Assembly: GCF_003018115.1 (NCBI RefSeq)
Contig: NZ_CP027457.1
Strand: one strand, 5' to 3'
Origin: Escherichia coli
GTDB lineage: Bacteria > Pseudomonadota > Gammaproteobacteria > Enterobacterales > Enterobacteriaceae
DNA length: 64,000 nucleotides
Position 1 is the stretch's first letter, and each line of letters opens with the position of its first letter. The position numbers and the translations under genes were made by a program. The notes beneath the pieces were generated by a model. That model searched no databases. It saw nothing but the letters and a program-made list of their open reading frames with translations, and was not told the DNA's origin. This document shows, in pieces, positions 31,745 through 33,921 of the stretch.

Positions 31745-32236
31745 TTAATCGCGGAAGTTTTTGAACTGGAACGGCTGACCCAGATCGCCACCGCGCACCA
31801 TCGCCATGACAGCCTGCAAATCATCACGAGATTTGCCAGTCACGCGGATCTCATCGCCCTGAATTTGCGCCTGCACTTTCAGTTTGCTGTCTTTGATCAT
31901 CTTGACGATTTTTTTCTGAGTGGCGCTCTCAATGCCCTGTTTCAGTTTCGCTTCCACAAACCAGGTTTTACCGCTATGAACGATATTTTCCGGTACATCC
32001 AGTGAACTGCCTTCAATGCCGCGCTTCAGCAGCTTGGCACGCAGAATATCCAGCAACTGATTGACCTGGAAGTCGGACTCGCTCAACACTTTGATGGTTT
32101 TGCTGGCGTCGTTCAGCTCAAATGAGGCTTCAACGTTACGGAAGTCAAAACGGGACTCCACTTCGCGGCTCGCGTTATCGACCGCGTTACGTGCTTCCTG
32201 AAGATCAACTTCAGAGACAATATCGAAAGATGGCAT
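31745..32236 (-). CDS. yajQ: nucleotide-binding protein YajQ
   Basis: 163-aa protein from internal Met [37 protein letters not shown]... Confidence 0.9.
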
Positions 32237-32314
32237 CTTTTCCTCTCCCTTCATTTTTGATGCGAAGCATAATACCTGCAAAGTTAAATAACCAACAGTC
32301 CTGCACCAGGACGT

Positions 32315-32360
32315 ATCCCTTAATTGTGCATAGTCGCAACAGCATGCACAATTAAGGGAT
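32315..32360. promoter_or_regulatory. perfect 17-bp inverted repeat in the divergent yajQ-panE intergenic region
   Basis: atcccttaattgtgcat (32315..32331), 12-bp spacer, atgcacaattaagggat (32344..32360); perfect reverse complements. Confidence 0.4.
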
Positions 32361-32403
32361 AGCCTTATTGAACACCCGGAGTGGTTGCGGGTGAGGAGGA
32401 ACA

Positions 32404-33868
<1,465 letters not shown>

Positions 33869-33921
33869 TGTCGGATGCGGCAAACGTCGCATCTGACCAG
33901 ATGCGACGTAAAAACCACAAA

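What the first reader, a model, noticed from the sequence alone, without database searches (positions are those of the whole stretch)
32315..32360. Perfect 17-bp inverted repeat in the yajQ/panE divergent promoter region
atcccttaattgtgcat / atgcacaattaagggat with a 12-bp spacer is an unusually long perfect palindrome for an intergenic region. It lies 44 bp upstream of the panE ATG and about 80 bp upstream of yajQ. It could be an operator for a dimeric regulator, or form a 5'-UTR hairpin in either transcript; it is not followed by a U-run, so it is not a classical terminator.
Basis: seen in the sequence. Interest (0 to 1): 0.35.

Follow-up and report, generated by a model that had tools for sequence, protein, structure and literature searches.

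The report
Known RNase III hairpin upstream of yajQ
The perfect palindrome between yajQ and panE in E. coli is real, but it is the already published RNase III cleavage hairpin in the long leader of yajQ mRNA (and it also carries a mapped transcription start), so it is an RNA-processing and promoter element, not an undiscovered repressor operator.

Summary
The arms are 18 bp and perfect (32314-32331 and 32344-32361) with a 12-nt loop. It is the longest perfect inverted repeat in the window, and it is single-copy and nearly invariant in about 5,400 E. coli genomes.

It is not new. Gordon, Cameron and Pfleger (mBio 2017) list an RNase III site at NC_000913.3 position 444573, which falls inside this hairpin. 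Both strands' transcripts were cleaved in vitro, and yajQ mRNA was about twice as stable in wild type as in an rnc mutant.

Published TSS maps show a yajQ promoter inside panE (window 32503, 267-nt leader) that transcribes through the hairpin. They also show a second yajQ TSS at 32316, inside the palindrome. That TSS is exactly where a TTGTGC-17-CACAAT promoter formed by the two arms predicts it. The mirror-image copy predicts the panE TSS at 32359; this is untested.

The element is a roughly 60-bp insertion found only in Escherichia and the Citrobacter freundii complex. In Citrobacter it is imperfect and pairs only in the panE-sense RNA, through G·U wobbles.

An operator role has little support: there is only an NtrC gSELEX peak nearby and an NtrC half-site. 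Verdict: real, functional, already known, of modest interest.

The parts
32314..32331 (.). Left arm of the palindrome (TATCCCTTAATTGTGCAT). On the plus strand it holds a -35-like TTGTGC (32324-32329). On the minus strand it holds the -10 CACAAT (32328 down to 32323) of the yajQ P2 promoter.
32332..32343 (.). 12-nt loop or spacer (AGTCGCAACAGC). It is identical in E. albertii.
32344..32361 (.). Right arm (ATGCACAATTAAGGGATA). It contains the published RNase III position NC_000913.3 444573, which is window 32346. On the plus strand it holds a -10-like CACAAT (32347-32352). On the minus strand it holds a -35-like TTGTGC (32351 down to 32346).
32316..32316 (-). yajQ P2 transcription start. It is Cappable-seq TSS U00096.2 443827, with relative read score 43.2. 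It lies 7 nt downstream of CACAAT, inside the palindrome.
32503..32515 (-). Distal yajQ promoter P3. The -10 TACAAT lies at 32515 down to 32510, inside panE codons Tyr-Cys-Ser, and the TSS is G at 32503. This gives a 267-nt leader that contains the whole hairpin. The functional -10 spelling is found only in E. coli and E. albertii.
32261..32274 (-). Proximal yajQ promoter P1. The -10 TATTAT is the complement of 32269-32274, and the TSS is at 32261, 25 nt upstream of the ATG. It is conserved across Enterobacteriaceae.
32298..32312 (-). Small hairpin GUCCUG-GUG-CAGGAC immediately 3' of the big hairpin in yajQ-sense RNA. It lies 4 nt from the 5' end of P2 transcripts and close to the 5' end left by RNase III. 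It overlaps the P1 -35 region. It occupies the position of the ancestral panE -10 (TATACT in Citrobacter, TGCACC here).
32359..32359 (+). Predicted panE transcription start, from the mirror-image promoter TTGTGC-17-CACAAT. It is not verified experimentally in the data I could read.
   Evidence: top-scoring plus-strand candidate; inferred from symmetry with the observed minus-strand TSS
32373..32393 (+). panE leader hairpin CACCCG-N9-CGGGUG, abutting the Shine-Dalgarno sequence. It is conserved across Enterobacteriaceae, with a C-G to U-A change and U·G intermediates.
31745..32236 (-). yajQ coding sequence
32404..33315 (+). panE coding sequence

Best explanation
The palindrome encodes an RNA hairpin of roughly 22-24 bp: 18 perfect pairs plus flanking pairs. 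This hairpin sits in the middle of the long (267-nt) 5' leader of yajQ mRNA made from the distal promoter P3 inside panE. RNase III cleaves the hairpin. That removes the part of the leader antisense to panE and leaves a shorter, more stable yajQ mRNA whose 5' end lies next to a small protective hairpin. The transcription map, the in-vitro cleavage, the rnc-dependent read depletion and the half-life difference are all shown in published work. How cleavage stabilises the mRNA is inferred. The same 48 bp also works at the DNA level. Its arms supply a -35 (TTGTGC) and a -10 (CACAAT) 17 bp apart, and the copy facing yajQ fires at a mapped TSS (32316). By symmetry, the copy facing panE probably provides the E. 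coli panE promoter (predicted TSS 32359). It would replace the ancestral -10 (TATACT in relatives), which has decayed to TGCACC in E. coli. This last point is inferred.
For: - **Published RNase III site.** Gordon et al. 2017 Table 1 lists 'Intergenic (panE-yajQ)' at 444573. Coverage was 96 reads in the rnc mutant against 2 and 3 in wild type. In-vitro cleavage was positive, 5' RACE found cut sites, and the yajQ half-life was about 6 min in wild type against about 3 min in the rnc mutant.
- **Coordinate check.** Position 444573 lies in the arm spanning 444558-444575 of NC_000913.3.
- **The hairpin is transcribed.** A yajQ TSS at U00096.2 443640 (window 32503) appears in two independent datasets.
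- **The hairpin folds robustly.** It forms in isolation (-30 to -31 kcal/mol; z = -5.4 in a 111-nt context) and in the full P3 leader, in both the MFE and the centroid structure.
- **TSS inside the palindrome.** A triphosphate-specific TSS at 443827 (window 32316) sits exactly 7 nt after CACAAT. A simple sigma-70 weight-matrix scan places all three mapped yajQ starts among the top six minus-strand candidates. It ranks the mirror promoter first on the plus strand.
- **Purifying selection.** There are no substitutions between E. coli and E. albertii across 32313-32403, against 24% third-codon divergence in the flanking genes. 5,384 of 5,415 E. coli genomes are identical over 32312-32363.
- **Co-occurrence.** The functional P3 -10 (TACAAT) and the perfect palindrome are both confined to Escherichia.
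Against: - Gordon et al.'s RNA-seq was unstranded, so the in-vivo depletion cannot be assigned to the yajQ-sense or the panE-sense RNA.
- I could not confirm whether this site is among the 9 of 10 Gordon targets that Altuvia et al. re-found in vivo.
- The panE TSS was not in any dataset I could read, so the mirror promoter is untested.
- The hexamers are only moderate matches (7 of 12).
- Neither a hairpin nor a promoter spacer obviously requires the 12-nt loop to be invariant between species, so some constraint is unexplained.
- The predicted relief of ribosome-binding-site occlusion after cleavage is small: P(unpaired) for the SD is 0.19 versus 0.25-0.31, and for the AUG 0.30 versus 0.53-0.62.
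Confidence: 0.8

Rival explanations
1. The main selected function is at the DNA level. In this view the palindrome is a pair of mirror-image, fully overlapping divergent sigma-70 promoters, yajQ P2 and panE P. The -35 of each is the complement of the -10 region of the other, so RNA polymerase can occupy only one at a time. The RNA hairpin and RNase III cleavage are then a by-product of read-through from P3.
For: There is a Cappable-seq TSS at 32316, exactly 7 nt after CACAAT. TTGTGC-17-CACAAT is present on both strands and is the best plus-strand candidate in 360 nt. The ancestral panE -10 upstream of the element (TATACT) is destroyed in E. coli (TGCACC), so panE needs another promoter. The blocks conserved between E. 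coli and Citrobacter are ATTGT and ACAAT, which are the hexamer cores.
Against: No panE TSS data could be read. A promoter does not need 18 perfect pairs; only about 6+6 bp are constrained. The Citrobacter copies keep base pairing through G·U wobbles outside the hexamers, which points to RNA-level selection. The hexamer matches are modest.
Confidence: 0.35
2. The hairpin works mainly in panE mRNA, as a 5'-proximal stem-loop that stabilises or otherwise controls the panE-yajL transcript. This appears to be the case in Citrobacter, where the hairpin sits immediately after the -10 TATACT.
For: In eight C. freundii-complex sequences the element lies directly downstream of GCTATACT. In the six that were folded and pair-counted, it folds at -25 to -33 kcal/mol in the panE sense against -7 to -22 in the yajQ sense. 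Those six have 2-7 G·U pairs per sequence on the panE-sense strand against 0-1 on the other. Nine wobble columns favour the panE sense and one favours the yajQ sense. The panE-sense in-vitro transcript was also cut by RNase III.
Against: In E. coli the upstream -10 is lost. The best predicted panE promoter starts transcription after the hairpin, so panE mRNA may not contain it. Gordon et al. saw a stability effect only for yajQ.
Confidence: 0.25
3. The palindrome is an operator for a dimeric DNA-binding regulator, for example NtrC, that controls yajQ and/or panE.
For: An NtrC gSELEX peak of 41% intensity was mapped at 443,846, which corresponds to about window 32297 and is adjacent to the palindrome. 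A perfect NtrC half-site TGCACCA lies at 32303-32309, and the arms contain TGTGCA and TGCACA. The palindrome centre is at -76.5 relative to yajQ P1.
Against: There is no full 17-bp NtrC box (TGCACCAnnnTGGTGCA) on either strand, by reading the sequence against the consensus quoted. Arms of 18 bp whose centres are 30 bp apart are unlike known operators. The Citrobacter homologues are asymmetric at the DNA level yet keep RNA pairing. The gSELEX evidence is in vitro, at low resolution, and no gel shift is reported for this spacer in the text I read.
Confidence: 0.08
4. The palindrome is a functionless remnant of a small palindromic insertion, either MITE-like or produced by a template-switch event, and it merely persists.
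For: It is an insertion of about 60 bp relative to Salmonella, C. amalonaticus, C. farmeri and other Enterobacteriaceae. In Citrobacter it is bounded by TA...TA.
Against: It is single-copy in E. coli, and no copies in other contexts turned up in the metagenome scan. It has no substitutions against E. albertii where about 11 are expected. Cleavage, a stability effect and a TSS have all been published for it.
Confidence: 0.03

Closest known systems
RNase III processing hairpins in E. coli mRNA 5' leaders that raise expression or stability (adhE leader; ahpC and pflB sites; Gordon et al. 2017, PMC5371410; reviewed in PMC9032294)
   Same: A long intramolecular duplex lies in an untranslated region. 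Cleavage is rnc-dependent, and the processed mRNA is more stable than the unprocessed one. This very site is listed in that paper.
   Different: Here the hairpin lies in a leader that is antisense to the neighbouring gene's 5' end, and the hairpin DNA itself carries a promoter. The stabilisation mechanism has not been established.
RNase III hairpins that contain a promoter (-35, -10 and TSS), at aceEF and pflBA, noted by Gordon et al. 2017
   Same: The hairpin forms only in read-through transcripts from an upstream promoter. Cleavage gives a 5' end close to that of the internal promoter's own transcript.
   Different: For yajQ the authors did not report a promoter in the hairpin. The link rests on a Cappable-seq TSS and my hexamer scan. 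This palindrome is also perfect, so it could act in both directions.
Destabilising RNase III leader sites (rnc and pnp autoregulatory leaders)
   Same: A double-stranded stem in a 5' UTR is cut by RNase III.
   Different: In those cases cleavage triggers decay. Here cleavage is associated with a longer half-life.
5'-terminal stem-loop mRNA stabilisers (the ompA-type 5' hairpin; from general knowledge)
   Same: In Citrobacter the hairpin starts within a few nucleotides of the predicted panE TSS. In E. coli the small hairpin at 32298-32312 lies 4 nt from the P2 5' end.
   Different: This was not tested here. The E. coli large hairpin is internal to the P3 leader and absent from P2 and P1 transcripts.
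Bidirectional promoters arising from DNA-sequence symmetry (Warman et al. 2021; from memory, not read here)
   Same: Divergent transcription comes from one symmetric DNA segment.
   Different: In those promoters the two -10 elements overlap and the TSSs lie about 18 bp apart. Here each -35 overlaps the other promoter's -10, and the TSSs would be 43 bp apart.

Membership tests
E. coli RNase III intramolecular substrate | Continuous or near-continuous RNA duplex of about two helical turns (at least about 20-22 bp) | tested here: met
   There are 18 perfect pairs, plus 2 G-C pairs in the loop and 4 flanking pairs. Energies are -30.2 kcal/mol (panE sense) and -31.3 kcal/mol (yajQ sense).
E. coli RNase III intramolecular substrate | The duplex-forming sequence is transcribed in vivo on one RNA | tested here: met
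   A yajQ TSS at window 32503 appears in two published datasets read here. The hairpin persists in the fold of the full leader.
E. coli RNase III intramolecular substrate | rnc-dependent cleavage in vivo, and cleavage by purified enzyme in vitro | not testable with these tools
   Published: 96 reads in the rnc mutant against 2-3 in wild type at 444573, in-vitro cleavage 'Y', and 5' RACE sites. I verified only that the coordinate lies in the arm.
Sigma-70 promoter | -35 and -10 hexamers with a 16-18 bp spacer, and a TSS about 7 nt after the -10 | tested here: met
   TTGTGC-17-CACAAT is present on both strands. The minus-strand copy matches the Cappable-seq TSS at 443827, window 32316. The plus-strand copy has no TSS data.
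NtrC operator | 17-bp box TGCACCAnnnTGGTGCA (core GCAnnAnnnTnnTGC) | tested here: not met
   Only the half-site TGCACCA at 32303-32309 is present. No full box was seen on either strand when the sequence was read against the consensus quoted. The gSELEX peak is nearby.
Intrinsic (Rho-independent) terminator | G+C-rich stem with a short loop, followed by a U-tract | tested here: not met
   The palindrome was not called by the terminator scan. Only the adjacent small minus-strand hairpin (32312-32298) with a weak U-rich tail was called, and one hit equals the shuffle expectation of 0.8.
Dispersed palindromic repeat families (REP/BIME, ERIC, MITEs) | Many related copies per genome | tested here: not met
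   In blastn word-11 mode there are exactly 2 places per genome, which are the site itself and its own reverse complement. No second-context copies were found in the metagenome scan.
Any Rfam RNA family | A covariance-model match | tested here: not met
   No match overlaps the region even at E-value up to 10.

The most novel reading that the evidence does not exclude
The perfect symmetry is maintained because the same 48 bp does three jobs. It is a sigma-70 promoter toward yajQ (observed TSS 32316). It is a mirror-image promoter toward panE, replacing the decayed ancestral -10. In read-through transcripts from the Escherichia-specific promoter inside panE, it is an RNase III hairpin. Cleavage at that hairpin trims the leader antisense to panE, converts P3 transcripts into P2-like mRNAs, and separates the yajQ ribosome-binding site from the CCUCCU sequence (the complement of the panE Shine-Dalgarno) that pairs with it. 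The element began as a panE-leader hairpin, the state still seen in Citrobacter where only the panE-sense RNA pairs. It became perfectly Watson-Crick in Escherichia when a synonymous TGC-to-TGT change in panE created the distal yajQ promoter and the opposite strand also had to fold.
Probability: 0.2. Interest if true: 0.5.

Novelty: already known. Interest (0 to 1): 0.25.

Why it matters
The finding itself adds nothing new, because the hairpin is a published and experimentally validated RNase III site that stabilises yajQ mRNA. What this analysis adds is context that could be tested cheaply:
- A triphosphate TSS lies inside the palindrome, and the arms form a promoter on both strands.
- The element is a lineage-restricted insertion whose Citrobacter version is constrained on the opposite (panE) strand.
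- The perfect form co-occurs with an Escherichia-specific promoter created by a synonymous codon change inside panE.

If confirmed, this would be a compact example of one DNA segment selected at once as a promoter in both directions and as an RNA processing site. It would also be a third case, after aceEF and pflB, of RNase III hairpins that enclose promoters.

Tried and rejected
- **Rfam.** A scan at E-value up to 10 found nothing at the site.
- **Terminator reading.** Rejected: there is no U-tract, and only a weak neighbouring hit was found, at chance level.
- **Repeat family or MITE.** Rejected for E. coli, where the only second match is the site's own reverse complement. A metagenome pattern scan (GTATCYYYTMATTGTACG) was mostly wasted. 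Of the 80 loci returned, 77 were chance matches, most of them in one conserved unrelated gene, and only 3 were the Citrobacter yajQ/panE locus.
- **NtrC operator.** No full box is present.
- **panE TSS.** I could not obtain it. Kim 2012 lists none. Mendoza-Vargas 2009 has none. The held part of the Cappable-seq GTF appears to contain plus-strand entries only. The SMRT-Cappable-seq supplements mention neither gene. Thomason 2015 is not held, and the Conway 2014, Altuvia 2018 and Belasco-lab supplements are not held.
- **Variant genomes.** I could not list the 31 E. coli genomes that carry a variant within the palindrome, because the tool shows only the top or evenly spaced rows.
- **Other Escherichia species.** Attempts to reach them through PanE clusters returned only E. 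coli-like contigs.
- **RBS occlusion.** Relief of ribosome-binding-site occlusion by cleavage has only weak support from base-pair probabilities.

Full report
**Observation**

The window is an E. coli chromosome segment, 100% identical over the intergenic region to O157:H7, BL21 and many other strains. Gene order is yajR (+), yajQ (-, 31745-32236), panE (+, 32404-33315), yajL (+) and thiI (-).

The reported inverted repeat exists and extends one base further on each side. The arms are 32314-32331 (TATCCCTTAATTGTGCAT) and 32344-32361 (ATGCACAATTAAGGGATA): 18 nt, perfectly complementary, with a 12-nt loop.

It is the longest perfect inverted repeat in the 64-kb window. The runners-up are 12 bp, and in 30 dinucleotide shuffles the longest arm was 9-12 bp in 29 cases and 14 bp once. 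The arm sequence has no other copy in the window, even with 3 mismatches allowed.

**Population and copy number**

The 167-bp intergenic region is found once per genome in 5,424 of 5,426 complete E. coli genomes. Over 32312-32363, 5,384 of 5,415 genomes are identical. By contrast, 302 genomes differ somewhere in the 84-nt stretch 32296-32379, and 2,229 differ somewhere in the whole spacer.

The two 84-nt-stretch variants I inspected carry a C-to-T change at 32307, outside the palindrome. Two genomes have IS3-family insertions: one inside the right arm after 32351, and one at about 32292.

A word-11 blastn search finds exactly two places per genome, namely the site and its own reverse complement. 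The element is therefore not a dispersed repeat. Rfam has no match.

**What is already known**

Gordon, Cameron and Pfleger (mBio 2017, PMC5371410) compared RNA-seq coverage in wild type and an rnc deletion. They list 'Intergenic (panE-yajQ)' at position 444573 of NC_000913.3, with 96 reads in the mutant against 2 and 3 in wild type. Their further results for this site were:
- T7 transcripts of both the yajQ and the panE strand were cleaved by purified RNase III.
- 5' RACE found several cut sites 'near panE'.
- yajQ mRNA had a half-life of about 6 min in wild type and about 3 min in the rnc mutant.

They describe the site as a hairpin in the yajQ 5' UTR. They note that the complementary strand would fold similarly, and they propose that cleavage leaves a stabilising 5' structure.

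I fetched NC_000913.3 444400-444800. There the palindrome occupies 444558-444575 and 444588-444605, so 444573 lies within an arm. In window coordinates it is 32346. Their RNA-seq was unstranded. A later in-vivo cleavage map re-found 9 of 10 Gordon targets, but I could not see which nine.

**Transcription map**

Published TSS tables place three yajQ starts on the yajQ strand:
- U00096.2 443640, which is window 32503. This gives a 267-nt leader, with the -10 TACAAT inside panE. It appears in Kim 2012 and in Cappable-seq with score 35.9.
- 443827, which is window 32316. Cappable-seq score 43.2.
- 443882, which is window 32261, at -25 from the ATG. Cappable-seq score 63.7, and directed 5' RACE with the -10 GGTATTAT.

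Only the distal start (P3) produces RNA containing the whole hairpin. In a fold of that leader, the hairpin is kept in both the MFE and the centroid structure.

The middle start (P2) is the third-from-last base of the palindrome. Cappable-seq captures triphosphate ends, so this is a true initiation site and not an RNase III product.

**Promoter inside the palindrome**

On the yajQ strand the arms read TTGTGC, then 17 nt, then CACAAT, and the TSS is the A exactly 7 nt after CACAAT. A simple weight-matrix scan of 32200-32560 places the three mapped yajQ starts among the six best minus-strand candidates. This gives some confidence in the scan.

Because of the symmetry, the same TTGTGC-17-CACAAT exists on the panE strand. 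It is the top plus-strand candidate, with a predicted TSS at A32359 and a 45-nt panE leader. I could not find any panE TSS data to test this (see Tried and rejected).

**Evolution**

Eighty yajQ loci from different species show that the divergent yajQ/panE arrangement is conserved across Enterobacterales.

The perfect palindrome is present and identical, loop included, in E. albertii.

Several lineages lack it. Salmonella (125-bp spacer), C. amalonaticus and C. farmeri (113 bp), and Enterobacter, Kluyvera, Leclercia and others (about 121-144 bp) instead carry a conserved GCTATACT or GCTATAAT, a -10-like box about 45 nt before the panE ATG.

The C. freundii complex (werkmanii, youngae, the braakii cluster, and FP75) has a 174-bp spacer. 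In these species an insertion of about 60 bp, homologous to the E. coli element, sits immediately downstream of that TATACT box. In E. coli the corresponding box reads TGCACC and forms part of a small hairpin at 32298-32312.

The Citrobacter hairpins are imperfect, and they are strongly strand-asymmetric:
- They fold at -25 to -33 kcal/mol as panE-sense RNA but only -7 to -22 as yajQ-sense RNA.
- They contain 2-7 G·U pairs per sequence on the panE-sense strand against 0-1 on the other.
- Nine wobble columns favour the panE sense and one favours the yajQ sense.
- 87% of cells form standard pairs, against 34-51% when the partner columns are slid. The sequences are few and closely related, and full compensatory changes are rare (one pair).

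This asymmetry is the signature of selection on an RNA, not on a symmetric DNA site. It points to a 5'-proximal panE leader hairpin in Citrobacter.

The distal yajQ promoter has a functional -10 spelling (TACAAT, using the Cys codon TGT) only in E. coli and E. albertii. Kluyvera has TACAGT, and all the other species compared have TGCAAT, TGCAGT or TGCAAA, which lack the critical A at the second position.

So the perfect, fully Watson-Crick form co-occurs with transcription of the opposite strand through the element. This fits a requirement that both RNAs, or the RNA and both promoters, work. With only two lineages, however, it is a correlation and not a test.

**Selection**

E. coli and E. albertii differ at 24% of third-codon positions in panE and yajQ. 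They differ at 5 positions in 32283-32312, but at none in 32313-32403. About 11 changes would be expected in the 48-nt palindrome alone, so the probability of seeing none is about 2e-6. The invariance of the 12-nt loop is not explained by either the hairpin model or the promoter model.

**Mechanism**

The following is shown in published work: transcription from P3 through the hairpin, RNase III cleavage of the hairpin in vitro, rnc-dependent depletion of reads in vivo, and a longer yajQ half-life in wild type.

The following is inferred:
- After cleavage, the mRNA begins just upstream of the small hairpin GUCCUG-GUG-CAGGAC. This may protect the 5'-monophosphate end, as the authors proposed.
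- In the long form, CCUCCU (the complement of the panE Shine-Dalgarno) is predicted to pair with the yajQ SD and start region. P(unpaired) for the SD is 0.19 in the long form against 0.25-0.31 in the shorter forms, and for the AUG 0.30 against 0.53-0.62. Cleavage might therefore also improve translation. The effect is modest and untested.

**Rivals**

An operator role has little support. An in-vitro NtrC gSELEX peak of 41% maps to about window 32297, next to a perfect half-site TGCACCA, but no full NtrC box exists. The Citrobacter data also argue against DNA symmetry as the constraint. A terminator role is excluded. A selfish or neutral insertion is contradicted by the conservation and the published phenotypes.

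**Verdict**

The element is an already published RNase III site, so it rates low for novelty. The promoter duality, the lineage-restricted origin and the strand switch between Citrobacter and Escherichia are modest new points that deserve a simple experimental check.

Noticed in passing
window 32373-32393: A small hairpin, CACCCG-N9-CGGGTG, abuts the panE Shine-Dalgarno. It is conserved across many Enterobacteriaceae as CACCTG-N9-CAGGTG, a C-G to T-A change on both sides, with T·G intermediates in C. amalonaticus and Pseudescherichia. It is probably a structured panE leader element.
   Followed up: partly
window 32510-32515 (minus strand), inside panE codons Tyr-Cys-Ser: The -10 (TACAAT) of the distal yajQ promoter is created by the synonymous Cys codon TGT. 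Among the species compared, only E. coli and E. albertii have it; Kluyvera has TACAGT, and the others use TGC (TGCAAT, TGCAGT or TGCAAA). The long yajQ leader is antisense to the first 100 nt of panE and to the panE leader, so the two mRNAs could also form an intermolecular duplex.
   Followed up: partly
window 32307: A C-to-T polymorphism was seen in both 84-nt-stretch variant genomes I inspected; 302 genomes differ somewhere in that stretch. It changes a G-C pair of the small hairpin to G·T on the plus strand. It also moves TGCACC toward the ancestral -10 TATACT (giving TGCACT).
   Followed up: partly
L084 (strain 13TMH22), insertion after window 32351; L085 (NZ_LT883142.1), insertion at about window 32292: IS3-family elements (IS1203-like) are inserted in the yajQ-panE spacer in two genomes. 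One splits the right arm of the palindrome with a 3-bp CAA duplication. Disruption of the hairpin is therefore tolerated in at least one clinical isolate.
   Followed up: partly
window about 32297-32309: An NtrC gSELEX peak (Shimada et al. 2021; 443,846 in older K-12 coordinates) coincides with a perfect NtrC half-site TGCACCA inside the small hairpin. No second half-site lies at the canonical spacing.
   Followed up: partly
window 32398-32408 pairing with 32240-32249 in the minus-strand RNA: In the predicted fold of the 267-nt yajQ leader, the complement of the panE Shine-Dalgarno and start region pairs with the yajQ Shine-Dalgarno. The RNase III hairpin lies between the two partners.
   Followed up: partly
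window 33884-33909 and 923-948: There are two other perfect 12-bp inverted repeats with 2-nt loops: ACGTCGCATCTG/CAGATGCGACGT between the convergent yajL and thiI ends, and TAACCCTCTCCG/CGGAGAGGGTTA. The first is likely a shared terminator. Neither was examined.
   Followed up: no
window 32332-32343: The 12-nt loop of the palindrome is identical in E. coli and E. albertii despite 24% third-codon divergence in the flanking genes. It is completely different in Citrobacter. Neither the hairpin model nor the promoter-spacer model explains this.
   Followed up: no
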